DNA of 64,000 nt. Origin: Naegleria gruberi (Eukaryota). The stretch lies in the NCBI GenBank assembly GCA_000004985.1, contig GG738876.1, one strand, 5' to 3'. The position numbers and the translations under genes were made by a program. The notes below the pieces were generated by a model. The model worked only from the letters and a program-made list of their open reading frames with translations. It had not been told where the DNA came from and made no database searches. Below, piece by piece: positions 13,855 to 57,819 of this stretch (position 1 is the first letter of the stretch; every line of letters begins with the position of its first letter).

Positions 13855-15183
13855 ATGAATCATCTTAAACGATTGATTGTTTTGGCTCTTGTAGTTGTAC
13901 TCATGTTTGTCGTCTCACTTTCACATGCTCAAGACGAACAACAGGAAAACAACAATAAGAGACCACCAAGACCTTTACCTTCAGGTAGACCACCAAGACC
14001 ACATCCAGATCATTCTGGAGGGCGACCACCTCGCCCATTCCCATCTGGAGGAAGACCACCACGTCCAGATCATTCAGGAAGAAGACCAAGACCAGATCAT
14101 TCTGGTGAGAGACCACATCCACCAGGTCCACAACCAGATCATTCAGGAAGAAGACCACCAAGACCTGGTCCACATCCTGGTCAATCAGGATTACCACCAC
14201 GTTCTGATGAACAAGATGGTCAAAGTGAAAATAGACCTCGTCCACCAAGACCTCATCCAGAACGTTCAGGTGAAAGACCACATCCAAGACCTTTCCCATC
14301 TGGAGGTAGACCACCAAGACCAGACCACTCAGGAAGAAGACCAGGTCCACATCCAGATCATTCTGGAAGACCACCTCGTCCACATCCAAGACCAGAACCA
14401 TCTTCTGAAGATGACGAACACTCTGATAGACTTGAACAAGGAAACAGACCTCGTCCACCAAGACCAGATCGTTCAGGTTTGCCACCTCGTCCATTCCCAT
14501 CTGGAGGAAGACCACCAAGACCAGATCATTCAGGAAGAAGACCACATCCAAGACCTGAACACTCTGGTGAGAGACCACATCCAAGACCAGCTCACTCTGG
14601 TGAAAGACCACCAAGACCAGATCATTCAGGAAGAAGACCAAGACCAGGTCCACAACCAGACCAATCGGGAAGACCACCTCGTCCTTATCCAGAACATTCT
14701 GGTGAAAGACCAGGCCCACGTCCTCAACCACAAGAATCAACTTCATCCTTAATAGGTGAAAGACCACCAAGACCTGATAGATCTGGAAGACCACCTCGTC
14801 CATTCCCATCTGGAGGCAGACCACCAAGACCAGGCCCATCTGGAGGAAGACCAGGTCCTGGACCAGGTCCACAACCTGATGTTTCATCTGTTGAAGATCC
14901 ACTCATTGATGCTCAAAATAATACCAAGAATGAAATTCCAAATGGACCATCCAATGGTTCTGATGCTTTGGCCATTGTCTTTGGTGTTATTGGTGCAATT
15001 GTTGTCATGGCTGCTATTGCTCTTGTCATTGGAAGTGGAATTGCTGTTTTTGTTTTGAAGAAGAAGGGTTATTCACTCTCATTGAAGAAACATCAAATGT
15101 TGAGAGATGAAGACGAATTTGAATATCCACAACAAGACCAAACTCCAATTTACTCTGTCAATCAACCAGTTGCTCAAAATTAG
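13855..15183 (+). CDS. type I membrane protein with a Pro/Arg-rich tandem-repeat ectodomain (GRPPRPDHSGRRP-type units)
   Basis: Signal peptide MNHLKRLIVLALVVVLMFVVSLSHA, then more than 20 imperfect repeats of RPPRPxPxHSG(E/R)RP. Near the C-terminus is a TM (LAIVFGVIGAIVVMAAIALVIGSGIAVFVL) followed by KKKGY and a roughly 40-aa tail. Confidence 0.6.
   Translation: MNHLKRLIVLALVVVLMFVVSLSHAQDEQQENNNKRPPRPLPSGRPPRPHPDHSGGRPPRPFPSGGRPPRPDHSGRRPRPDHSGERPHPPGPQPDHSGRRPPRPGPHPGQSGLPPRSDEQDGQSENRPRPPRPHPERSGERPHPRPFPSGGRPPRPDHSGRRPGPHPDHSGRPPRPHPRPEPSSEDDEHSDRLEQGNRPRPPRPDRSGLPPRPFPSGGRPPRPDHSGRRPHPRPEHSGERPHPRPAHSGERPPRPDHSGRRPRPGPQPDQSGRPPRPYPEHSGERPGPRPQPQESTSSLIGERPPRPDRSGRPPRPFPSGGRPPRPGPSGGRPGPGPGPQPDVSSVEDPLIDAQNNTKNEIPNGPSNGSDALAIVFGVIGAIVVMAAIALVIGSGIAVFVLKKKGYSLSLKKHQMLRDEDEFEYPQQDQTPIYSVNQPVAQN
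13960..14880 (+). repeat. about 39-nt imperfect tandem coding repeats (Pro/Arg-rich) within the 13855..15183 gene
   Basis: Recurring ggaagaccaccaagaccagatcattcaggaagaagacca units. They produce the artefactual track ORFs 13895..14752(+) and 13901..14902(-). Confidence 0.6.
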
Positions 15184-26338: not shown

Positions 26339-26720
26339 GTTCAGTATTCTTCTTGCTGGAATACTATTGATCACCATTCAGAGATGTCAGATGCGAAGAA
26401 CGCAGAAGTGTTTGTTGTTTGTAAAAATTATTACGGAAATATTTACTGAAATTTGTTTTAGTTATTCGAAAGAAATGCATTTACGAATCCACAAAGATGC
26501 ATCATCATATCTTAAAGGATAATAATGCCGATCCAGTAGGGCGGCAATCCTCTTATTTCTAACAATTTGTACGAAACCAAGTTGAAATTGTAGAATCTTG
26601 TTTGTAAATGGAAAGAGATGGTATTTTACAAATTAATTTAAACTGTCCCTAGTACGTACATTTTGTTTGAAATGATTGAAAGAAAGTAAGAGTAAAGGGT
26701 TTATTAATCATTCAAAAAGA

Positions 26721-28520
26721 ATGTCAACAATACTTTCGAATAGTTTATTCATCATTACTTTACTCTTGCTTGTTGTTTCGAATAGTTACCAATCAACCAA
26801 CAACAGCAACTTGACAACCGTTACTTCATTCTACTACCCACAATACGAATGTCTCAAACACACTCCAGTCAACCAATTCTACTATCCTTTCATGTTCACT
26901 CTCGATACTCCCTTCTATGATTATTGTAAATTGCCAACGATTGGAAATGCACCACAAGATTTCTATAAGGACTCTCAATTGATCAGTTCATTATTGGATG
27001 GTTCATTCTCTTGTGTTGATTTCCTGTGTTCCAATGACAAGGAATGGAACCTTTCGAATAAGACTCAGCTCACTACACTTGGAGTCATGTGGAATTATTG
27101 TTTTTATTGTAATACTGAGGGAAGAAATTCATCATCAATTAATTCGACAAGTGAAATATTTAGAGAAAAACTAATGTTGGGTCAATGTGATGCATTTTCA
27201 ATTGCAAATTCATCGTTGAATTTCTTGGAGAATTTCAATCGAGTTTCGAATAGGCATTGTAATGGAGATAGCTATGTGGAGAGACGTCATTTACCATTCC
27301 TTGAATATTACTTTTTCCAAACAGATTACTTTATCAATTCGTTTGCTAGATATAGAAAGAATAATTTCAATGAAGTTTATTCTGATGCAAAGACTTACAT
27401 TTCCAAAGTTAAACTTCAATCCATTCTCACCTTTTATTTTAAAGATTTATTCGAAAGGTCAACACTTGATTCAGCCCCTCTCAACATTCCAGTTTCATGT
27501 TGGTGTGATTATGGATCTAGCTCCAAAACCATTGGTTTTCAATGCTACGATTATTATCAGGGATGGCAATTATTATGTACCTATAGAATATGTGTTGTGA
27601 TATTTACTCTATTATATGGCAGTTGTTCATTGTTTTATTCATTGGTTTTGGTGGTACCGAGAATTGTGGAGAGAATTTCCTCATTCAAACAGAGAAATGA
27701 TATTAGATTAATGGAAACTAATTGTAAGAAACCTCTCTATTTCATTAGACATTTTTTAGATATTGTAACACAACCTCCAATTTTCTTTACATTATCTGCA
27801 TTCTTTGGAATGTTGGAAAACTGTTTCAGATTTCTATTTAATTTTAGTGTTTTTAATGGATTTTTCAATTCTTTCTATTCGGGAATTTTTAGATCGATTT
27901 CAATTGGTTTGGCATGTTGTGGATATTCTGCATTGGTTATTTCATGGGCTCATGTGATTGATTTGGCAAAGAGAAAGACATCCTCTGCTCCCTTTTCAAG
28001 TCAATTGTCAAAATTGAATGTTGTAATCTTGACAATTTGTTACATTGGCATGTTAATATCAGGAATTGTGAGTGCAATCATTTTGATTGTTGTGAAGAAC
28101 TCATCTACTGGTTATATCTTCTTGACAGTTGCTGTACTGATCTATCTCTTTACATTTGTAGTTGGCTTTGCATTTTATGGAATCAAGATTTTACTTTCCC
28201 TCAGAAAAACCTCAGATACTAGCTCAATTATTGAGTATCGTTTCACCAAATTCATTCTATTAGAAACGGTCTTCTTCCTTATTGGTTGGATTGTTTCACT
28301 CTTCATGTTAGTTTCGTACGTGTTTGGTTTCGATTCGATGGGACTTTTCTGGGGACTCAATAGAAATATTTTCATGGATACCATGTTGAATGCAGTTTCC
28401 ATTCTCTCATGTTACATTACTTTCAATAGGAATGCATTCGAAATGGTGTATGGAAAGAAGTTTCTTTCATTGTGTTCATGTGAAAAGAATAATGATACTA
28501 CAAGTGATAATAAACAATAA
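26721..28520 (+). CDS. seven-transmembrane receptor-like protein with an N-terminal secreted Cys-rich ectodomain (putative GPCR)
   Basis: Signal peptide MSTILSNSLFIITLLLLVVSNSYQ, a roughly 300-aa ectodomain with many Cys and NxS/T sites, then 7 hydrophobic helices (LLCTYRICVVIFTLLYG ... NAVSILSCYITF) and a short tail. The true ATG is at 26721. Confidence 0.55.
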   Translation: MSTILSNSLFIITLLLLVVSNSYQSTNNSNLTTVTSFYYPQYECLKHTPVNQFYYPFMFTLDTPFYDYCKLPTIGNAPQDFYKDSQLISSLLDGSFSCVDFLCSNDKEWNLSNKTQLTTLGVMWNYCFYCNTEGRNSSSINSTSEIFREKLMLGQCDAFSIANSSLNFLENFNRVSNRHCNGDSYVERRHLPFLEYYFFQTDYFINSFARYRKNNFNEVYSDAKTYISKVKLQSILTFYFKDLFERSTLDSAPLNIPVSCWCDYGSSSKTIGFQCYDYYQGWQLLCTYRICVVIFTLLYGSCSLFYSLVLVVPRIVERISSFKQRNDIRLMETNCKKPLYFIRHFLDIVTQPPIFFTLSAFFGMLENCFRFLFNFSVFNGFFNSFYSGIFRSISIGLACCGYSALVISWAHVIDLAKRKTSSAPFSSQLSKLNVVILTICYIGMLISGIVSAIILIVVKNSSTGYIFLTVAVLIYLFTFVVGFAFYGIKILLSLRKTSDTSSIIEYRFTKFILLETVFFLIGWIVSLFMLVSYVFGFDSMGLFWGLNRNIFMDTMLNAVSILSCYITFNRNAFEMVYGKKFLSLCSCEKNNDTTSDNKQ

Positions 28521-29047
28521 TGTGATTGGTAAAGGATTGAATATTCTTGATCTCTGTTTCAATTTTCGTTCAAACTTGCACCTCATCTCCCATTTTCCTT
28601 GAAATTCAATTGTTCGGAGATGAGTGGGAGTTATTAATTGAAAATTCCGCAGTAGTAAGCACAATCTGTTCACAAGTCCATTACTTCTCCTCATGAAATC
28701 ATCAATTAATATTGAAAATTATTTGGATGTAGATATTGCAATTTCCTTCGTGTTCTCCATCTTTATTTCTCTGTGCATTATCAAAAACTACACACAGGTG
28801 CGCCCAATGATTGATCAATATTGAACCTTTTTTCATTCCTCCCACACGTGTGTGCTCCCTATCAATCATTAAGAGCATCAACATGATCCATTCAACAAAT
28901 GCAAGAGAGGCTCTCTTGAAAATTTTGGCGCGCAACTAAAATCTATGTGATTGTGTATTTGAGACTGATGGGAAGATGCTTTGAAAAAATATCTTTTTAA
29001 AATAATTTTAAATAAATTATTGTTGAAGAAAATTGATTCTAGAAAAA

Positions 29048-32017
29048 ATGTCTTCGTACGGAACGCACGGCGATGGTGGAGATGGGTTGGAATCGAGTAA
29101 ACAACTCAATGTGCTCCAAAAGATTGCTAGAAATAGAGTGGTGAATATTGTTGGTGCGATAATATTATCAATTATTTTATTATTGAGTATTGGATGTTGT
29201 GTTGTTGTTGGTGTGCTTCATTCACATTTGCTTTTCCAATGTGGATTTGCTGAATTTATATTTATGTTACTTCTTGAAGGCGCTACATTCTTCTTCTGTA
29301 TTTATCACTTGTACAATATTTACAAGTTTTTCAAGACTAGAGCACGACACTCTGGTAAGAAGGGAATTTCCGCTATTGTTGCTGCTTTATGTTCATCAGA
29401 AGTAAATCAATACAATGCATATTCTGATTCCAGACAAGGAAATGAAGAAGATGATTTTGATGATGAAGAAGATGATGAAGATGACGAAGAAGAGGAGGAA
29501 GAAGAAAGCAAATTTTCCAAGTTTGTTGTCGGCTTTTTGAAGATTGCTGCCAATGCTATTGCTGTTTTATGTTTCATCATTTTGGTACTTTTCACAGTTG
29601 TTGTCGTTCCATTGCAACAACAAACCTACCCAACTTATAACGGTACTCTTAAACTTCCAAAGTTTACACCAAAGGGATCTTCTGCTCCTACAATTTCACG
29701 TGAAAGTAATGGTGTTGTTCACATCAAGGCTTCACACGATTATGATTTATATTTCGCACAAGGTGTAGCTGTTGCTCAAGATCGTTTGTGGCAATTGGAA
29801 TTTAATCGTAGATTGTCAAATGGTATTTTGGCTGAAGTTGCTGGTGCTGATGCTGTCAATGTTGACAGTTGGTTCAGAACTCTCGGATTTGCTCGTTCTG
29901 CTGCCAACATTTTACCAACCATTGATGCTGAAACTCTTTCATTCATTCAAGCATATTGTGATGGTATTAACTCTTATATTAATAGTAATCCACCACTTCA
30001 ACCTGAATTTGTTCTCCTCAACACTAAACCAGTTGAATGGACTCCAAGTGATGTTATTGCTTATATGAAGTTTGTTTCATTCTCTCTTTCTGATAATATG
30101 GAAAAGGAAGTTTGGAGATTCAAGATGATGCAAAGAAATATCACAAAGGACAGAGTTAACGAATTGGTTCCTTTCTACCCAACTGATATGCCAACTATTT
30201 TGAGTTTGGAAGAAATGAATTTGCAAAACGTTCCAGTTGAAGAAAGAGAAAAGATTGAAAAGGCTCAACAAGATGATTCTGCTGCTTTTATTCCAAAGGC
30301 TATTCACAATTTGACCATGTCTGTCATGGAAGAAATGTTCGCTTCATTGGAAGAATCTGGTGAATGGGGTAAACAAGCTGTCAGATCAGTTTTGAAGGGT
30401 ATGGTTGCTCCAGATATCACTGGTAACAAGGCCTCAAACAATTGGGTTCTCGGAACCAAGATTACAGCAAACAATGGATCATTGTTGGCTAACGATCCTC
30501 ATTTGGATTTGACTGCTCCAGGTATTTGGTATTTGGCTCATTTGGAAGGTCCAACTCACAATGTTATTGGTTCTACTTTTGTTGGTCTTCCAGGTATTGT
30601 TATTGGTAAGAATGATTTCATTTCATGGGGTGTTACTACTGGTCTTGTTGATGCTCAAGATTTGTACGTCATGTCCGAAGTTGAAGAAGGTAAAACTTAC
30701 AACTACAATGGTAAAGTTCTCCAATATGAAACTCGTACCGAAACTATTAATGTTAAGGGAGCTGCTGCCAAGACTATTACTGTTAAGGAATCTGTCTACG
30801 GTCCAGTTATTAATGACCACTACCAAGTTGATGGTAACGTTTTGTGTTTGAAGTCTTTGACTACCTACACTAATGATACCACACTCCAAGCTTTCCTCAA
30901 GTTGAACAGAGAAGCTAAGGATTGGAACTCATTTGTTGATGTTGTCTCCTTGTTCGTTTCCCCATCCCAAAACTTTGTCTTTGCTGACAAGAGTGGTAAC
31001 ATTGGTTACTATTTGGCTGGTTTGGTTCCAATTAGAAAGGAAGGTCACAATGGTAGATTCCCAGTTATTGGTGATGGTAGCTATGATTGGCAAGGATTTA
31101 TTCCAGCTGCTGAAAAGCCAAGCGTTTACAATCCAAAGAAGGATTACATTGCTTCTGCAAACAACAGAGTTACTCCTGTTGGTTACAAGTACAGTATTAC
31201 CCAAGATTGGTACTCTTTCTATAGAGCTAGCAGAATTGTCTCATTGATTGAAACTGCTATTGAAAAGGGAACTCCACTCAATTTTGAATACATGAAGAAG
31301 ATGCAACACGACGTTCACTCACCAGTCTTTGATCAATTCAAGTTTGTTTTTGAAGCTATTCCAAAGTTCAGAAATCTCACTGAAAATAAGGAAAAGTTGA
31401 GAGAAAAGTTGATTAATTGGGACGGTGATGAAATTTTGTACTCTCAATCTGCTTCCATCTTTGAAATGTGGTACAAGATTATGGGTAACCTCACCAAGGT
31501 TGAAACTGTCAATAGATGGTCTTTCGGTCCATATCTTTACAATGCCTTGAAGAATGGTGATAGTGCTTGTGAAAATTATCACAACACTACTTGTATGTTG
31601 TTCGCTATTGACAGCTTTGAAAATGCCATTGATGCTCTTGAAGCCACTTACGGTTCTATTCCATTGTGGGGTTCTGATATTCACGAATCTGAATTCCCTA
31701 ACCCGGTAATGGATAATACTGTTCTCAAATGTTTGGCTGGAGCTACTCGTACTACTGTTGGTGGTTCTTCAACCATTAATGTTGGTGAAACTCAATATCC
31801 TGCCCTCAATTCAAGATGGGGTGTTTCTTATAGACAAGTTGTTGATTGGCGAGGCAATCAAGCTTCATTCATCATTCCACTCGGTCAATCTGGTAACTTC
31901 TTATCTCCTCTTTACACCAACTTGTTAGAAATGTGGTCTGACCCAACTGGTCAATACTTGGACATGAAATCTGCTGGTTACACTGCAACCAATACCCTTT
32001 CTCTTTCCTCTCAATAA
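29048..32017 (+). CDS. penicillin amidase / N-acyl-homoserine-lactone acylase family Ntn-hydrolase with an N-terminal 3-TM anchor and an acidic (D/E) loop
   Basis: Family motifs ...GNKASNNWVLGTKITANNGSLLANDPHLDLTAPGIWY (Ser nucleophile at the start of the beta-subunit, SNxW) and downstream segments conserved with PvdQ/PGA. The N-terminus has three hydrophobic helices flanking EEDDFDDEEDDEDDEEEEEEE. 990 aa, single exon. The true ATG is at 29048. Confidence 0.8.
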   Translation: MSSYGTHGDGGDGLESSKQLNVLQKIARNRVVNIVGAIILSIILLLSIGCCVVVGVLHSHLLFQCGFAEFIFMLLLEGATFFFCIYHLYNIYKFFKTRARHSGKKGISAIVAALCSSEVNQYNAYSDSRQGNEEDDFDDEEDDEDDEEEEEEESKFSKFVVGFLKIAANAIAVLCFIILVLFTVVVVPLQQQTYPTYNGTLKLPKFTPKGSSAPTISRESNGVVHIKASHDYDLYFAQGVAVAQDRLWQLEFNRRLSNGILAEVAGADAVNVDSWFRTLGFARSAANILPTIDAETLSFIQAYCDGINSYINSNPPLQPEFVLLNTKPVEWTPSDVIAYMKFVSFSLSDNMEKEVWRFKMMQRNITKDRVNELVPFYPTDMPTILSLEEMNLQNVPVEEREKIEKAQQDDSAAFIPKAIHNLTMSVMEEMFASLEESGEWGKQAVRSVLKGMVAPDITGNKASNNWVLGTKITANNGSLLANDPHLDLTAPGIWYLAHLEGPTHNVIGSTFVGLPGIVIGKNDFISWGVTTGLVDAQDLYVMSEVEEGKTYNYNGKVLQYETRTETINVKGAAAKTITVKESVYGPVINDHYQVDGNVLCLKSLTTYTNDTTLQAFLKLNREAKDWNSFVDVVSLFVSPSQNFVFADKSGNIGYYLAGLVPIRKEGHNGRFPVIGDGSYDWQGFIPAAEKPSVYNPKKDYIASANNRVTPVGYKYSITQDWYSFYRASRIVSLIETAIEKGTPLNFEYMKKMQHDVHSPVFDQFKFVFEAIPKFRNLTENKEKLREKLINWDGDEILYSQSASIFEMWYKIMGNLTKVETVNRWSFGPYLYNALKNGDSACENYHNTTCMLFAIDSFENAIDALEATYGSIPLWGSDIHESEFPNPVMDNTVLKCLAGATRTTVGGSSTINVGETQYPALNSRWGVSYRQVVDWRGNQASFIIPLGQSGNFLSPLYTNLLEMWSDPTGQYLDMKSAGYTATNTLSLSSQ
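29441..29506 (+). repeat. GAA/GAT (Glu/Asp) trinucleotide-rich coding microsatellite within the acylase gene
   Basis: gaagaagatgattttgatgatgaagaagatgatgaagatgacgaagaagaggaggaagaagaa. It also yields a poly-Ser antisense ORF (29407..29595) in the track. Confidence 0.6.
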
Positions 32018-32195
32018 TTTAAAGTCATTATTAAATAAATAATCTAGTTTGTATATATTTACTGTTGTTGTTAATATGAAAGAAGCGTTTCTGTGGCGAA
32101 ATTCAACATCTTCAACTGGATTCACTGAGGTTTGATCATTGTCACTTTTCAATATCTTCCTGAAAAGGGCACAAACTAAAGTTGAAAAAAACAAA

Positions 32196-33590
32196 ATGAC
32201 CAATGCCAGTTCTTCCACAACACGAACAACAAGTGCAAGCTACAGACAGCAAAAATTGAAAAGTAAACAAATAGATAATCAACTGTACGGAAATTTATCA
32301 GCACAACTTGTCTCCACCAACAACAATCAGCTCCAACTTGAACAATTACAAAAAACAACGAGACCTCTTCGAATATTATTGATGGGACCAAGAAATTGCG
32401 GAATTAAAACCTTTCTAATGAATGCTCTTGATATGGAAGCTGATGATTTCATGATTCGAACCATGTTATCAATGTCTCATAGAGTGAATCAAATTTCGAA
32501 TAGTAATCTTGCTGGACTTGATGATACAGAACTTACACGTCCATTGACTTTTCAACAAAAGGCAGAGGGTCTCTTTTCAGAGAAGAATAGAAATCTGACG
32601 CTCAATGTGTACATGTATATTTGTAGAGGAATCAAAGTTTTTGTAAAATGGGAATGGAAATATTTTGAAAGATTGAAGAGGAAAATTCATGAAAATTATG
32701 AACATCATCATTATCATGAGGAACATTTTGATTTGGTTTATAATTGGGAAGGTGACGAAGATGGTAAATTATTGGATGAGTTGATAAATGATTGTCGAGA
32801 GCAGAAACAATTGAATTCCAAAATTATTTCAATTTATTCCAAAATTGTGAATTATGGAAAAAAGGAAGTAATGAACGAATTTTACAATTCATTATTAAGA
32901 TCGACAAATATTAGATATTTGGATAATATTCAATAGTATGTTTGTCATAAGTTCAAATTTCATTCAAAAAATTTCAGTTTTTTCACACTTGATGCTTTCA
33001 ATAGAATTACTTCCAATGATTACAAGCCACTCAACCAAGATTTGCTCAAATCTCATCATCCAGACGATAAGGGAATTATTTCAATTCGGAGGGATGAGTT
33101 TGAATTTATTGACATTACAGGTCAATTGAATGAAAGAAGAAAGTGGATTCATCAATTTTCCAACTCTATTGATGTTATAATGTTCTTCATTCCAATTTCA
33201 GATTACAATCTAATCAATCCACTGACTGGAATGAATAGACTTGATGAGGCTTTTCATTTATACAATGAAATTCAAACAACGAAACTTTTTGAGAGAGCTG
33301 ACATTTCAATCATGTTAACAAAAATGGATTTGTTTAAAAAGAAACTAGTTTTGGATCCAATTTCGAATTATTTTGAAAAGTTTCAAGCGTCGAATGGAAA
33401 TTTAAAAGAAACTATGGAAGTGATGAGAGGAATATTTAGTCAAAATTTTGGGGAAGATTCGAATTATAGGAGACTGTTTGTGCATCAGGTTGATTTGACT
33501 GATGTGAATGATTTTAAAGTGGTTTATAGAGGAATTTCCAGTTCTCTTCGATTGGGAACTTTCATTTCAATTTTTGCTAGAAGGAGATGA
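32196..33590 (+). CDS. heterotrimeric G-protein alpha-subunit-like protein with degenerate nucleotide-binding motifs, at least 2 exons (32196..32935 and 32978..33590)
   Basis: Exon 2 aligns to the G-alpha switch/Ras-like region: DDKGIISIRRDEFEFIDITGQLNERRKWIHQFSNSIDVIMFFIPISDYN...RLDEAFHLYNEIQT...ISIMLTKMDLF. The 42-nt intron gtatgt...tttcag joins LDNIQ|YFFTLDAFNRITSNDYKPLNQDLL. However, G1 is GPRNCGIKT (not GxGxxGKS), the switch-I Thr is absent, NKxD is replaced by TKMD, and there is no MG myristoylation N-terminus. Confidence 0.65.
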
Positions 33591-33613: not shown

Positions 33614-35056
33614 TTATTGAGAATTTTGATGTTTCATAACCAAACCATGAATCTTTTTAACTCTCATTTCCTTGAGGAATTCCATCGAAAGTTTGAACCT
33701 GTAATGAGAATCCAACATTACAATTTCAATTTCCTTCTCCAAGAAATCAAACAAATCGTCTGGAAGCGACGAAATTTGACGATTCTTATACAATTCAATT
33801 TGAAACAAAACATCATGTGTGGACTTCTTATCAATATTTACAGATTTAGGGCCATTAACATTCAGGAATTCTTCATATATTTCCTGAGCTAATTGGAATT
33901 TCTTTGCTTCAACAACTTCTAATTCAGTTTCGAGTTCTTGAGTAGTTGAAAGATTTTTCTTTCTCTTGGTTGTTGGTTGACCAACACTGAGAGAAGTATT
34001 GGATTTGGAAGACTGATCAACAACAGAGATGGTGGAAGGAGTTGCGTTATTGGAAACTTCAGATAATTCGAAAGAAACGCTACCTAAACTATTAGAACTT
34101 TCAGTTTCTTCACTCAATGTTTGAACCAATTCAATTTGATATTCACACAATCGCTTGTACTGCTGAACTTTTTCAAGGAATTCAAAGTTTTCAGAGTTAA
34201 ATTCCTTCTTACAATGATTCTTAAAGAGATTTCTCAATCTGTCATTATTCATGGTGTGTGAAATGTCAACTGCTAGTGCTTCTCTTAATTTTTGAACATT
34301 GTTGGAGTCTGATCTAATAGCCAACCCAAAAACAAAGATAATGACTGGAACTGTAACTACAACTGCCAAGCAAATAATTGATAATGAAGTTATGGACATA
34401 GCATTAGTGATTTTTGACACTTGTTCTTGAGAAGCAAGTACATAATCAAGTACAACATCTTGTGCAGTTCTAAAAGTGTTTCTTCTTGCGATATAAGTGG
34501 CGGAAGTAAGCAATCGAACAGCTTCCGTAAAGTTTCCATCTCTAATATTCGAAACAGCTTGAGAATCAGTATCAGTCAAATAATTAACAATTCCCTGCAA
34601 ATTATTTCTATACTGCTGCGAAATACTCTGAGGTATCTTTTGAAGCATATTTTCAGTCAACTCATCATTCACTTTCGAATAATTATTATAATAAGCCAAA
34701 TATCCCTCATTTCCCGAATAGGCAGCCACCAACGTATAAGCTTGAATATAGGCAGTATACGTAGATACCTTCGCTCTAGTAGCCAACAAATCAATATCCT
34801 CATTCATCTGACTATTTTCACTATAAATCAGCAAACCAAGGAGAATGAGGAAAGTAATGGTATTGAGGACCATGGCAACCATTGCAAAGATTTTAATGAA
34901 ATTCAATTCGAGTTTGAAGAAACAGCAGTGGACTGTGAAGGTTTTTGGCTGTTTTTGATGTTTACGAAAGGAATCGTCGAGAGAGGATTGCTGGCGTTTG
35001 AGAGGAGGTGAAGATTCAATGCTTGTTTCGATTGGTTTCTTTGTTTCGTTTTCCAT
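33614..35056 (-). CDS. membrane-anchored RGS (regulator of G-protein signalling) domain protein, 2 TM helices plus a C-terminal RGS domain
   Basis: The C-terminal half contains FKNHCKKEFNSENFEFLEKVQQYKRL...AQEIYEEFLNVNGPKSVNID...FQIELY...VMLDSHYRFKLSMEF, which matches the RGS box. The N-terminal part has two TM helices (FAMVAMVLNTITFLILLGLLIY and SLSIICLAVVVTVPVIIFVFGLAI) flanking a roughly 150-aa loop. Single 480-aa ORF. Confidence 0.75.
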   Translation of the reverse strand: MENETKKPIETSIESSPPLKRQQSSLDDSFRKHQKQPKTFTVHCCFFKLELNFIKIFAMVAMVLNTITFLILLGLLIYSENSQMNEDIDLLATRAKVSTYTAYIQAYTLVAAYSGNEGYLAYYNNYSKVNDELTENMLQKIPQSISQQYRNNLQGIVNYLTDTDSQAVSNIRDGNFTEAVRLLTSATYIARRNTFRTAQDVVLDYVLASQEQVSKITNAMSITSLSIICLAVVVTVPVIIFVFGLAIRSDSNNVQKLREALAVDISHTMNNDRLRNLFKNHCKKEFNSENFEFLEKVQQYKRLCEYQIELVQTLSEETESSNSLGSVSFELSEVSNNATPSTISVVDQSSKSNTSLSVGQPTTKRKKNLSTTQELETELEVVEAKKFQLAQEIYEEFLNVNGPKSVNIDKKSTHDVLFQIELYKNRQISSLPDDLFDFLEKEIEIVMLDSHYRFKLSMEFLKEMRVKKIHGLVMKHQNSQ

Positions 35057-51077: not shown

Positions 51078-51150
51078 CGCCCCACGTGGGGCTCGAACCC
51101 ACGACCGTTGGATTAAAAGTCCAACGCTCTACCGACTGAGCTAGCGGGGC
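51078..51150 (-). tRNA. tRNA-Lys (anticodon UUU)
   Basis: The minus-strand read GCCCCGCTAGCTCAGTCGGTAGAGCGTTGGACTTTTAATCCAACGGTCGTGGGTTCGAGCCCCACGTGGGGCG folds as a cloverleaf. It has a 7-bp acceptor stem, D-arm GCTC/GAGC, anticodon loop CTTTTAA, and T-arm GTGGG-TTCGAGC-CCCAC. 73 nt, no intron. Confidence 0.9.
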
Positions 51151-57746: not shown

Positions 57747-57819
57747 TGGAGATGCGGGGTATCGATCCCCGTACCTCTTCCATGCTAAAGAAGCGCTCTA
57801 CCATGTGAGCTACATCCCC
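57747..57819 (-). tRNA. tRNA-Ala (anticodon AGC)
   Basis: The minus-strand read GGGGATGTAGCTCACATGGTAGAGCGCTTCTTTAGCATGGAAGAGGTACGGGGATCGATACCCCGCATCTCCA has the G3:U70 Ala identity pair, anticodon loop TTAGCAT, and T-arm ACGGGGATCGATACCCCGC. Confidence 0.9.

What the first reader, a model, noticed from the sequence alone, without database searches (positions are those of the whole stretch)
29048..32017. Penicillin/AHL-acylase (Ntn hydrolase) fused to an N-terminal 3-TM anchor with a poly-acidic loop
This Ntn-hydrolase family is predominantly bacterial, so a eukaryotic copy suggests acquisition by horizontal transfer. The catalytic core carries the SNxW nucleophile segment and a LLANDPH motif typical of PvdQ/AiiD-like acylases. 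It is preceded by about 190 aa containing three predicted TM helices and a 25-residue D/E run. That run is encoded by a GAA/GAT microsatellite and so is potentially length-polymorphic. The gene lacks introns, unlike most neighbours.
Basis: partly seen in the sequence, partly recalled or inferred. Interest (0 to 1): 0.6.

Follow-up and report, generated by a model that had tools for sequence, protein, structure and literature searches.

The report
Membrane-anchored bacterial-type acylase in Naegleria
This Naegleria gruberi gene encodes an intact bacterial-type "penicillin amidase" (S45 acylase) fixed to a membrane by a three-helix anchor; it belongs to an old, eukaryote-only branch of the family that shares this anchor, so it is a known gene with an undescribed architecture, not a recent gene transfer.

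Summary
Window 29048-32017 (+) is one uninterrupted 989-codon ORF in Naegleria gruberi. It matches Pfam Penicil_amidase at E=8.6e-180 and keeps the catalytic residues Ser463 (SNNW), His485 (LLANDPH) and Asn705. About 195 residues precede the catalytic domain: three hydrophobic helices and a 21-residue D/E tract.

The interpretation needs correcting.
- The gene is already annotated, but the deposited model is N-terminally truncated.
- It is not a recent transfer. All 29 long, eukaryote-type homologues recovered share the layout "two TM helices, loop, third TM helix". They form one clade in a rough NJ tree (100% bootstrap), nested among single-anchor bacterial acylases in 88.5% of replicates.
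- This fits one ancient bacterial acquisition. The bacterial signal-anchor became TM3, and a new TM hairpin was added in front of it.
- The hairpin is found nowhere else among 1.84 billion representative proteins.
- The acidic tract is conserved in composition across heterolobosean orthologues. It is an interrupted GAA/GAT tract, not a clean microsatellite.
- The closest solved relative is D-succinylase, not PvdQ. The substrate is unknown.

One new lead: a cysteine at the hairpin turn (Cys65) and Cys895 are both eukaryote-specific, which suggests a disulfide tether. This is untested.

The parts
29048..32017 (+). Complete single-exon CDS (989 codons plus TAA) of the membrane-anchored S45 acylase
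   Evidence: ORF list and translation. 100% identical to the deposited N. gruberi 'penicillin amidase' P0001, which starts only at Met73. Orthologues share the Met1 start MSSYGTH.
29138..29218 (+). TM1 (about residues 31-57). It is preceded by the K/R-rich segment QKIARNR, so the N-terminus is predicted to be cytosolic.
   Evidence: Hydropathy peak of 3.0; AlphaFold2 helix 22-57; conserved in orthologues.
29219..29245 (+). Short lumenal/extracellular turn HSHLLFQCG (residues 58-66). It contains H60 and C65, which are invariant in alignment A1, and the nearly invariant H58.
   Evidence: Alignment A1 (A1 position + 19 = protein residue). A Cys at this turn is present in all 13 representatives across the eukaryote groups.
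29246..29323 (+). TM2 (about residues 67-92), with invariant intramembrane E69, E77 and C84 and nearly invariant H87. It is followed by the K/R-rich, cytosolic segment YKFFKTRARHSGKK.
   Evidence: The TM1-TM2 profile finds only 7 proteins among 1.84e9 representatives, and all are N-termini of S45 acylases.
29324..29518 (+). Predicted cytosolic TM2-TM3 loop (residues 93-157), disordered in the model
   Evidence: pLDDT below 50 for residues 118-151. Net loop charge of -10 to -13 is conserved in the orthologue subclade.
29444..29506 (+). Poly-acidic tract EEDDFDDEEDDEDDEEEEEEE (residues 133-153), encoded by interrupted GAA/GAT codons
   Evidence: A compositionally conserved tract ending in EES[KR] is present in N. 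fowleri, Willaertia and the environmental orthologues. It is absent from the paralogues and the other eukaryote groups.
29519..29617 (+). TM3 (about residues 158-190). It occupies the same position as the single N-terminal signal-anchor of the bacterial homologues.
   Evidence: Hydropathy peak of 3.24; helix 155-193. Bacterial relatives have one hydrophobic segment (123 of 139) or none (16 of 139) at this position. The following segment, P..NGTL.L...G..HI.A, aligns with them.
29642..30127 (+). Alpha-subunit domain (about residues 199-360)
   Evidence: Pfam match begins at residue 215. Matches the alpha chains of PGA and glutaryl acylase in the PDB. pLDDT above 90.
30128..30433 (+). Alpha-beta linker/spacer (about residues 361-462), ending ...GNKA just before Ser463. 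It is longer than in bacteria.
   Evidence: The stretch from reference residue 345 to Ser463 has a median length of 114 aa in eukaryote-type sequences against 73 aa in bacteria. Low pLDDT at residues 424-447.
30434..32014 (+). Beta-subunit (residues 463-989). Key residues: Ser463 nucleophile (30434-30436), His485 = beta23 (30500-30502), Asn705 = PGA Asn-beta241 (31160-31162), Arg726 and Arg729.
   Evidence: Conservation among 165 aligned sequences: Ser 165, His 164, Asn 164, Arg726 164, Arg729 162. Residue equivalence to E. coli PGA comes from the PDB alignment. Foldseek best matches are D-succinylase, cephalosporin acylase and PGA.
31730..31732 (+). Cys895, a eukaryote-specific invariant cysteine in the beta chain and the candidate disulfide partner of Cys65
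   Evidence: Cys in 23 of 23 non-redundant eukaryote-type sequences and 0 of 135 bacterial ones, where the column holds mostly R, K or D.

Best explanation
The gene encodes a polytopic, membrane-anchored S45 N-terminal-nucleophile acylase of Naegleria gruberi.

Topology (inferred)
- The N-terminus is cytosolic.
- TM1 and TM2 form a hairpin. Its short turn (HSHLLFQCG) faces the lumen or the outside of the cell.
- A disordered, strongly acidic loop lies in the cytosol.
- TM3 carries the roughly 790-residue catalytic domain to the lumenal/extracellular side. That is the equivalent of the periplasm, where the bacterial enzymes work.

Mechanism (inferred from family knowledge)
- The precursor cuts itself between Ala462 and Ser463.
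- The new N-terminal Ser463 is the nucleophile.
- Asn705 and a backbone NH form the oxyanion hole, assisted by His485 and Arg726/Arg729.
- The enzyme hydrolyses an N-acyl amide bond.

Evolution (shown at the level of a rough tree plus shared architecture)
- One old acquisition of a single-anchor bacterial acylase gave rise to a eukaryote-only clade.
- The bacterial signal-anchor was kept as TM3.
- A new TM hairpin and loop were added in front of it.
- The heterolobosean orthologue line then evolved the conserved H/C/E hairpin residues and the acidic tract.

Substrate and role (inference only)
- The likely substrates are acylated bacterial metabolites: acyl-homoserine lactones, lipopeptides, acylated siderophores or beta-lactams.
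- A bacterivorous amoeba would meet these at its surface or in phagosomes.
- The acidic loop plausibly acts as a sorting or interaction element.
For: Family and chemistry
- Pfam match at E=8.6e-180.
- PDB sequence matches to D-succinylase, PGA and cephalosporin acylases.
- AlphaFold2 model with mean pLDDT 88 and pTM 0.85. Foldseek best hit is D-succinylase at E=7.6e-47.
- All catalytic residues are invariant or nearly so in 165 sequences.

Topology
- K/R residues flank the N-terminal side of TM1, the C-terminal side of TM2 and the N-terminal side of TM3. The TM1-TM2 turn has none.
- All 8 N-x-S/T sequons lie after TM3.
- TM3 is collinear with the bacterial anchor.

One gene, correct start
- Collinear orthologues with the same N-terminus in N. 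fowleri (73% identity), Willaertia (55%) and environmental eukaryotic contigs.

Genuine eukaryotic locus
- Neighbours are Prp19, an actin-like gene, G-alpha and an RGS gene.
- GC3 is 0.31, within the neighbours' range of 0.23-0.32.

Eukaryote-only clade
- All 29 long forms have three TM segments. Bacteria have one (123 sequences) or none (16).
- NJ bootstrap support for the clade is 100%, and 99.5% when rooted with D-succinylase and PGA. It is nested among bacteria in 88.5% of replicates.
- Contigs L001, L002 and L003 carry eukaryotic genes. Two members come from EukProt transcriptomes.

Hairpin exclusivity
- Only 7 hits among 1.84e9 representative proteins, all of them S45 N-termini.

Expression
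- The N. fowleri 'penicillin amidase homolog' was identified by mass spectrometry in extracellular-vesicle cargo and in an immunoreactive gel band (PMC9312180, PMC7350353).
- A Willaertia transcript was detected at a low level (PMC7285305).
Against: - No experiment on this protein shows processing, topology, localisation or activity.
- The substrate cannot be read from the sequence. No NCBIfam equivalog matches, and the nearest solved enzyme shares only about 23-24% identity.
- The tree is neighbour-joining with a simple distance. Taxon sampling is limited to the best hits of two queries. The bacterial sister group is unresolved (support 5-13%), so the donor is unknown.
- The taxa behind most environmental members are not identified. 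'Several eukaryotic lineages' is therefore inferred from sequence divergence (37-41% identity between groups) and from contig content, not from named organisms.
- Mass-spectrometry identification of the N. fowleri protein in bands of about 100-140 kDa would fit an unprocessed precursor of about 110 kDa better than separated 52- and 59-kDa chains. Those bands also contained actin, so gel position is unreliable.
Confidence: 0.72

Rival explanations
1. Recent, Naegleria-specific horizontal transfer of a bacterial AHL/penicillin acylase, followed by chance fusion to a local TM-encoding sequence.
For: The family is overwhelmingly bacterial. The best non-eukaryotic hits are proteobacterial acylases at 30-33% identity. 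The gene has no introns.
Against: - Orthologues with the same three-TM module exist in N. fowleri, Willaertia and more distant environmental eukaryotes, and there is an old paralogue line.
- All eukaryote-type sequences form one clade at 100% bootstrap.
- Identity to any bacterium is only about 33-37% over conserved columns.
- There is no clear compositional anomaly.
Confidence: 0.04
2. The gene is anciently eukaryotic and vertically inherited from an early eukaryote. It was lost many times, and there was no bacteria-to-eukaryote transfer of this subfamily; alternatively, the transfer dates to the origin of eukaryotes.
For: There is a eukaryote-only clade with a shared derived architecture and a shared Cys895. 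Divergence between eukaryote groups is deep (37-41% identity). The bacterial sister group is unresolved.
Against: - With D-succinylase and PGA as outgroups, the sampled bacteria are never monophyletic, and the eukaryote clade is nested among them in 88.5% of bootstraps.
- Published surveys report a patchy distribution: a single chytrid among fungi (PMC5567314) and a few protists.
Confidence: 0.12
3. It is a genuine penicillin G acylase involved in penicillin or antibiotic metabolism, as the KEGG-based statements in the Willaertia papers imply.
For: Pfam, KEGG and NCBI all use the name 'penicillin amidase'. E. coli PGA beta aligns at E of about 1e-37.
Against: The name is only the family label. 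Position beta23-24 reads His-Leu (NDPHL), not the Gln-Phe (NGPQF) of PGA. D-succinylase is closer than any PGA. No biosynthetic context is present in the window.
Confidence: 0.08
4. The N-terminal region is only a generic membrane anchor, and the acidic run is a neutral slippage product with no function of its own.
For: The tract is encoded by GAA/GAT repeats. The paralogues and the other eukaryote groups lack an acidic run. Two close relatives differ by one codon within it.
Against: - H60, C65, E69, E77 and C84 are invariant, and many hairpin residues are conserved down to 30-35% identity.
- The number of acidic residues (18-23) and the net loop charge (-10 to -13) are kept across orthologues at 43-73% identity, although the exact sequence and codons differ.
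Confidence: 0.15
5. Bacterial contamination or an assembly artefact in the Naegleria assembly.
For: None beyond the bacterial affinity of the family.
Against: The gene lies between typical eukaryotic genes: Prp19, actin-like, G-alpha with an intron, and RGS. Its AT-rich codon usage matches the neighbours. Orthologues occur in two other sequenced heteroloboseans.
Confidence: 0.01

Closest known systems
Bacterial 'penicillin acylase family protein' subfamily of about 800 aa with a single N-terminal anchor (Xanthomonas, Lysobacter, Noviherbaspirillum, Janthinobacterium, Pseudoalteromonas and others).
   Same: 30-33% identity over the whole catalytic region. It shares the SN[NA]W nucleophile segment, the NDPH His-beta23, ANN and YRAxR, the C841/C849 cysteine pair, and an N-terminal hydrophobic anchor collinear with TM3.
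   Different: The bacterial proteins have no TM1-TM2 hairpin, no cytosolic loop and no Cys895. Their alpha-beta linker is shorter, with a median of 73 aa against 114 aa.
D-succinylase (DSA) of Cupriavidus sp. P4-10-C, PDB 7EBY / 7EA4
   Same: It is the closest solved structure by sequence (E=3.6e-57) and by fold (Foldseek E=7.6e-47, target TM-score 0.78-0.82). It has the same SNNW and NDPH motifs.
   Different: Identity is only 23-24%. It is a soluble bacterial enzyme. Nothing here shows that its substrate, N-succinyl-D-amino acids, applies to the Naegleria protein.
AHL / siderophore acylases PvdQ, MacQ and relatives (S45)
   Same: They share the Ntn fold, the Ser-beta1 nucleophile and His-beta23, and they act outside the cytoplasm on N-acylated bacterial metabolites. 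The Naegleria enzyme may work in the same way.
   Different: They are much more distant. PvdQ matches at E=2e-8 and the NCBIfam PvdQ equivalog scores 47.7 bits against a cut-off of 950. MacQ ranks below D-succinylase, cephalosporin acylase and several PGA chains by fold.
Penicillin G acylase of E. coli / Kluyvera (EC 3.5.1.11)
   Same: Same family, same alpha-spacer-beta precursor logic, and an equivalent oxyanion Asn (beta241 = Asn705).
   Different: PGA has Gln-Phe at beta23-24 where this protein has His-Leu. PGA is a soluble periplasmic protein with a signal peptide. Only the first ~335 beta-chain residues align.
Other reported eukaryotic S45 genes: N. fowleri 'penicillin amidase homolog' Q25548, Willaertia magna K01434, Acanthamoeba, the diplonemid Rhynchopus, the chytrid Gonapodya prolifera
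   Same: The N. fowleri and Willaertia proteins are direct orthologues with the same architecture. The literature treats such genes as bacterial acquisitions.
   Different: None of the papers found describes the three-TM module, the acidic loop or the eukaryote-specific cysteines. Whether the Acanthamoeba, Rhynchopus and Gonapodya genes belong to the three-TM clade was not tested.

Membership tests
Peptidase family S45 / Pfam PF01804 (penicillin amidase, Ntn-hydrolase acylases) | Full-length match to the family profile above the curated threshold | tested here: met
   600.5 bits against a gathering score of 21.3; E=8.6e-180; profile positions 3-667 of 675.
Peptidase family S45 / Pfam PF01804 | N-terminal nucleophile Ser at the start of the beta chain (S-N-x-W), preceded by a small residue | tested here: met
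   ...GNKA|S463-N-N-W. Ser is present in 165 of 165 aligned sequences. It aligns to Ser-beta1 of E. coli PGA and to residue 282 of D-succinylase.
Peptidase family S45 / Pfam PF01804 | Oxyanion-hole Asn (PGA Asn-beta241) and the conserved Arg behind the active site | tested here: met
   Asn705 aligns without gaps to PGA beta241 and is present in 164 of 165 sequences. Arg726 (164/165) and Arg729 (162/165) are also conserved. The exact equivalence to PGA Arg-beta263 is uncertain by one alignment position.
Peptidase family S45 / Pfam PF01804 | Alpha-beta-beta-alpha Ntn-hydrolase fold made of an alpha and a beta subunit | tested here: met
   AlphaFold2 model with pLDDT above 90 over the catalytic domain. 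Foldseek probability is 1.00 to D-succinylase, cephalosporin acylase, PGA, MacQ and PvdQ.
Peptidase family S45 / Pfam PF01804 | Autoproteolytic maturation of the precursor into alpha and beta chains | not testable with these tools
   Only the residues required for it are present. The published N. fowleri gel-band data are ambiguous.
Peptidase family S45 / Pfam PF01804 | Export of the catalytic domain out of the cytoplasm (a signal peptide in bacteria) | tested here: inconclusive
   TM3 is collinear with the bacterial anchor. The charge distribution and the sequon positions predict a lumenal/extracellular domain. There is no experimental topology.
PvdQ-type bifunctional AHL/pyoverdine acylase (NCBIfam NF051460 equivalog) | Score above the equivalog cut-off | tested here: not met
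   47.7 bits against a cut-off of 950, and only residues 460-661 match. PvdQ in the PDB matches at E=2e-8.
AHL acylases in general (AiiD, QuiP, MacQ and others) | Hydrolysis of the amide bond of acyl-homoserine lactones | not testable with these tools
   His-beta23 (NDPH) is shared, but it is also present in 164 of 165 sequences of this subfamily and in D-succinylase. It therefore does not discriminate.
Penicillin G acylase (EC 3.5.1.11) | PGA-type residues at beta23-24 (Gln-Phe in N-G-P-Q-F), next to the nucleophile in the phenylacetyl pocket | tested here: not met
   The query has N-D-P-H-L at the aligned positions.
Gene of horizontal (bacterial) origin in a eukaryote | Eukaryotic sequences nested within bacterial diversity in a rooted tree | tested here: met
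   Nested in 88.5% of 200 NJ bootstraps with D-succinylase and PGA beta chains as outgroups. The sampled bacteria were never monophyletic. This is a rough method, and the donor is unresolved.
Gene of horizontal (bacterial) origin in a eukaryote | Recent transfer: a close bacterial relative, restriction to one lineage, or anomalous composition | tested here: not met
   The best bacterial identity is 30-33%. Orthologues and paralogues occur across heteroloboseans and other eukaryote-type groups. GC3 lies within the neighbours' range, and RSCU distance is only slightly higher (0.169 against 0.08-0.15).

The most novel reading that the evidence does not exclude
Eukaryotes converted a soluble or single-anchor bacterial Ntn acylase into a covalently membrane-tethered ecto- or phagosomal enzyme.

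- The added TM1-TM2 hairpin presents a universally conserved cysteine (Cys65) at the lumenal membrane face.
- That cysteine would form a disulfide with the eukaryote-specific Cys895 of the beta chain.
- After self-cleavage at Ser463, both chains would then stay fixed to the membrane.
- The conserved cytosolic acidic loop of the heterolobosean orthologues would direct the enzyme to phagosomes, the cell surface or extracellular vesicles.
- There it would strip acyl chains from bacterial signals, lipopeptides or siderophores.

This would define a protist-wide family of quorum-quenching or 'delipidating' enzymes used by bacterivores.
Probability: 0.2. Interest if true: 0.65.

Novelty: new variant of a known kind. 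Interest (0 to 1): 0.4.

Why it matters
The enzyme family is well known and the gene is already annotated, so the core finding is ordinary. What goes beyond existing annotation is as follows.

1. **The deposited N. gruberi protein is truncated.** It lacks 72 N-terminal residues, including TM1 and the most conserved motif of the N-terminal module.

2. **There is a eukaryote-only branch of the S45 acylases.** It is defined by a three-TM N-terminal module and a clade-specific cysteine. This changes the story from a sporadic transfer into Naegleria to one old acquisition followed by eukaryote-specific remodelling. It is a clean example of how a periplasmic bacterial enzyme was adapted to the eukaryotic secretory and endocytic system.

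3. **The function is directly testable and of ecological interest.** Bacterivorous and pathogenic amoebae (N. fowleri, Willaertia) may use the enzyme to inactivate bacterial acylated signals, lipopeptide antibiotics or siderophores. The N. fowleri orthologue has been detected in extracellular vesicles and in an immunoreactive gel band.

Tried and rejected
- **Hairpin in other protein contexts.** An exhaustive profile search of 1.84e9 representative proteins returned 7 hits, all of them S45 N-termini. Pfam at E<=10 gave only sub-threshold matches: PBP1_TM and CENP-B through the acidic run, DUF4728 at 16.8 bits against a cut-off of 26.7, and TMEM_230_134 at E=0.7. I rejected all of these as not significant.
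- **Naming a second eukaryotic lineage.** I used the last homology search on the amino-acid transporter next to P0143 on the 563-kb contig (L003). The nearest named hits were animal CAT transporters at only 36-47% identity, so the organism remains unidentified.
- **Cluster look-up.** It returned no species names for the EukProt or environmental members.
- **AFDB fold search for named relatives.** The library was unavailable.
- **Giant-virus or phage vector.** Scanning viral contigs with the family alignment found no relative.
- **Bacterial donor.** The sister group has only 5-13% bootstrap support, so no donor is claimed.
- **Cysteine parity of the ectodomain.** I tried this as a test of the disulfide idea. 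Counts vary between sequences and are uninformative.
- **Cys65-Cys895 distance in the model.** The structure tool does not return model coordinates, so the distance could not be measured.
- **Contamination.** Rejected from the gene neighbourhood and codon usage.
- **Microsatellite reading.** Downgraded: the tract is interrupted, with low Tandem Repeats Finder scores.

Full report
**What is in the sequence**

Window 29033-32017 (+) is one open reading frame. Its first ATG is at 29048 and it ends with TAA at 32015-32017, giving a 989-aa product. Residues 215-974 match Pfam PF01804 (Penicil_amidase) at E=8.6e-180, covering essentially the whole profile. SNNW begins at residue 463 and LLANDPH at residue 479.

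Three strongly hydrophobic segments precede the catalytic domain, at about residues 31-57, 67-92 and 158-190. AlphaFold2 predicts them as long helices: 22-57, 59-65/67-102 and 155-193.

A disordered loop lies between the second and third helix. It holds the acidic run EEDDFDDEEDDEDDEEEEEEE at residues 133-153 (window 29444-29506). That is 21 residues, 20 of them D/E, not 25.
- Its codons are GAA x10, GAT x7, GAG x2, GAC x1 and TTT x1.
- Tandem Repeats Finder reports only an imperfect period-3 array: 75-82% matches, scores 37-42.
- The longest pure run is (GAA)3.

**Whose gene it is, and the annotation**

The product is 100% identical to the deposited Naegleria gruberi 'penicillin amidase' (P0001). 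The window's 34% GC fits that genome. The neighbours are ordinary eukaryotic genes: Prp19, an actin-like gene, a G-alpha gene split by an intron, and an RGS gene. The acylase's GC3 of 0.31 lies within the neighbours' range. Contamination is excluded.

The deposited model has only 917 aa. It starts at Met73, inside TM2. N. fowleri (1002 aa, 73% identity), Willaertia magna (1008 aa, 55%) and environmental relatives at 34-45% identity all begin M-[ST]-[ST]-Y-G and are collinear through TM1, TM2, the acidic tract and TM3. The possibility that the TM region belongs to a separate upstream gene is not supported.

**The enzyme**

The closest solved proteins by sequence are, in order:
- D-succinylase of Cupriavidus (E=3.6e-57);
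- penicillin G acylases (about 1e-37 to 1e-50);
- glutaryl/cephalosporin acylases;
- PvdQ, which is far weaker (2e-8).

The NCBIfam PvdQ equivalog scores 47.7 bits against a cut-off of 950. An AlphaFold2 model built from an 82-sequence alignment has mean pLDDT 88 and pTM 0.85, with pLDDT above 90 across the catalytic domain. Its best Foldseek matches are D-succinylase (E=7.6e-47, target TM-score about 0.8), then cephalosporin acylase, PGA, MacQ and PvdQ.

Catalytic residues were checked against the ungapped alignment to the E. coli PGA beta chain.
- Ser463 corresponds to Ser-beta1.
- His485 occupies position beta23, where PGA has Gln (NGPQF against NDPHL).
- Asn705 corresponds to the oxyanion-hole Asn-beta241.

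Conservation in a 165-sequence alignment is: Ser463 in 165, His485 in 164, Asn705 in 164, Arg726 in 164 and Arg729 in 162. The catalytic apparatus is intact.

The expected chemistry follows from established knowledge of S45 enzymes and is not shown here: autoproteolysis before Ser463, then hydrolysis of an N-acyl amide through the new N-terminal serine. The LLANDPH motif is general to this subfamily and to D-succinylase. It does not mark the protein as PvdQ/AiiD-like. 'Penicillin amidase' is a family label, not a substrate assignment.

**Topology (inferred)**

Lys/Arg residues cluster before TM1 (QKIARNR), after TM2 (YKFFKTRARHSGKK) and before TM3 (SKFSK). The TM1-TM2 turn has none. All eight N-x-S/T sequons lie after TM3.

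Bacterial homologues have a single N-terminal hydrophobic segment that is collinear with TM3. The following stretch (P..NGTL.L...G..HI.A) also aligns.

The simplest reading is a cytosolic N-terminus, a TM1-TM2 hairpin with a short lumenal turn, a cytosolic acidic loop, and TM3 as the retained signal-anchor. TM3 places the catalytic domain in the lumen or outside the cell. Only about eight residues separate TM3 from the first strand of the catalytic domain, so the domain should sit directly on the membrane.

**The N-terminal module is conserved and exclusive**

In ten heterolobosean-type sequences, down to 30% identity, the hairpin keeps H60, L62, C65, E69, E77 and C84 invariant. H58, H87 and many other residues are nearly invariant (alignment position + 19 gives the protein residue).

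A profile of this hairpin was searched exhaustively against 1.84 billion representative proteins. It found seven proteins, and every one is the N-terminus of an S45 acylase. Pfam has nothing significant for the region.

The acidic tract is conserved as a composition. There are 18-23 D/E residues and a net loop charge of -10 to -13 in all orthologues at 43-73% identity, always ending in EES[KR]. The exact sequence and codons differ. The tract is weak or absent in the paralogue line (N. fowleri P0013, P0139, P0011) and in the other eukaryote groups. It is therefore a selected feature of one subclade, not a neutral slippage product. The only direct hint of length polymorphism is a one-codon difference between two members of the same 90% cluster (P0003 / P0135).

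**A eukaryote-only clade**

Every 'long' homologue recovered has exactly the layout 'two TM helices, loop, third TM helix' in front of the acylase. This set comprises 29 sequences of at least 920 aa, or shown to be truncated versions of such proteins. Bacterial homologues have one hydrophobic segment (123 sequences) or none (16). One bacterial protein is an MFS-transporter fusion. P0014, called as an 814-aa protein, gains TM1 and TM2 when its ORF is extended upstream on its contig.

Evidence that these sequences are eukaryotic:
- P0005, P0014 and P0143 lie on contigs with eukaryotic genes: STAG and synaptobrevin; DOT1 and split genes; CENP-C and IFT57.
- Two members come from EukProt transcriptomes.
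- The P0012 cluster appears as exon-sized fragments on contigs of about 400 kb.

A neighbour-joining tree (Kimura distance, 699 columns, 165 sequences, 200 bootstraps) gives the following support:
- all 29 long forms together: 100%;
- the heterolobosean-type subclade: 96%;
- its orthologue part: 97.5%;
- Naegleria plus Willaertia: 100%;
- a second group of eight sequences: 94.5%.

I then added the beta chains of D-succinylase and E. coli PGA as outgroups, using the sequences printed. The eukaryote clade was kept in 99.5% of replicates and the sampled bacteria were never monophyletic. The eukaryote clade was nested among bacteria in 88.5% of replicates. The bacterial sister group is unresolved (5-13% support).

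Identity between eukaryote groups (37-41%) is barely higher than identity to bacteria (33-37%), so the clade is old.

The conclusion is that a bacterial origin is likely but the acquisition is ancient. It appears to have happened once, before the module was added. The method is rough, and most members are not assigned to named taxa.

**A new lead: two eukaryote-specific cysteines**

Cys895 is present in 23 of 23 non-redundant eukaryote-type sequences and in 0 of 135 bacterial ones. In the bacterial sequences the column holds mostly Arg, Lys or Asp, which suggests a surface position.

The hairpins of all 13 representative eukaryote sequences, from every group, align with a cysteine at the TM1-TM2 turn. 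This is Cys65 in N. gruberi.

The only other widely conserved pair, C841/C849, is shared with bacteria.

In the predicted topology both eukaryote-specific cysteines face the lumen, and the catalytic domain sits on the membrane. I therefore propose a Cys65-Cys895 disulfide that keeps the beta chain tethered to the membrane module after self-cleavage. This is inference only.

**Literature**

- The N. fowleri 'penicillin amidase homolog' (Q25548) was identified by mass spectrometry in extracellular-vesicle cargo, in a band of about 140 kDa, and in a roughly 100-kDa immunoreactive band (PMC9312180, PMC7350353).
- Willaertia papers list the gene under 'penicillin biosynthesis' from KEGG mapping and report a low-level transcript (PMC6892926, PMC7285305).
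- A diplonemid preprint notes penicillin amidase in several protists.
- A survey of fungal serine proteases found S45 only in the chytrid Gonapodya and read it as horizontal transfer (PMC5567314).
- None of the papers found describes the three-TM module, the acidic loop or the cysteines.

**Verdict**

This is a real, intact and already-annotated gene of a well-known enzyme family. As a gene it is ordinary. Its architecture and its membership of a eukaryote-only, three-TM clade are undescribed.
- Substrate and cellular role remain open.
- My best guess is deacylation of bacterial acylated metabolites at the cell surface or in phagosomes.

Noticed in passing
window 29048-29264 (codons 1-72 of the ORF): The deposited N. 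gruberi protein (P0001, 917 aa) starts at Met73. It omits TM1 and the conserved HSHLLFQCG turn. Orthologues in N. fowleri, Willaertia and environmental contigs support the start at 29048.
   Followed up: yes
window 13855-15183 (+): A 442-aa ORF with a signal-like N-terminus, about two dozen degenerate Pro/Arg/His/Gly repeats (HSG[ER]RP[PH]PRP...) and one C-terminal TM segment. It coincides with the local GC bump (0.41) at 14-16 kb.
   Followed up: no
window 26676-28520 (+), 32139-33590 (+), 33614-35056 (-): Three genes flank the acylase.
- Upstream is a 614-aa ORF with no Pfam hit. It has a signal-like start, 11 Cys in the first 290 aa, and at least five hydrophobic segments.
- Downstream is a G-alpha gene (PF00503, E=5e-31) split by an intron.
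- Next to it is a convergent RGS-domain gene (PF00615).
Together they may form a receptor / G-alpha / RGS neighbourhood.
   Followed up: partly
protein P0164 (bacterial, 1281 aa; not in the window): A bacterial member of the same acylase subfamily is fused behind a 12-TM MFS transporter (PF05977 MFS_3, PF07690). This fusion hints that bacterial relatives may act on exported compounds.
   Followed up: no
L002 1-793 (contig of P0014): The called 814-aa gene is N-terminally truncated. The same frame continues upstream to an ATG and encodes two more hydrophobic helices with cysteines in the turn. This environmental eukaryote therefore also has the three-TM layout.
   Followed up: yes
cluster of P0012 (P0121-P0134; not in the window): Members of 116-232 aa lie on contigs of about 400 kb, while versions of 780-945 aa lie on short contigs. 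This suggests an intron-split copy of the gene in an unidentified eukaryote.
   Followed up: no
window 51078-51150 (-) and 57747-57819 (-): tRNA-Lys (anticodon ttt) and tRNA-Ala (anticodon agc) genes.
   Followed up: no
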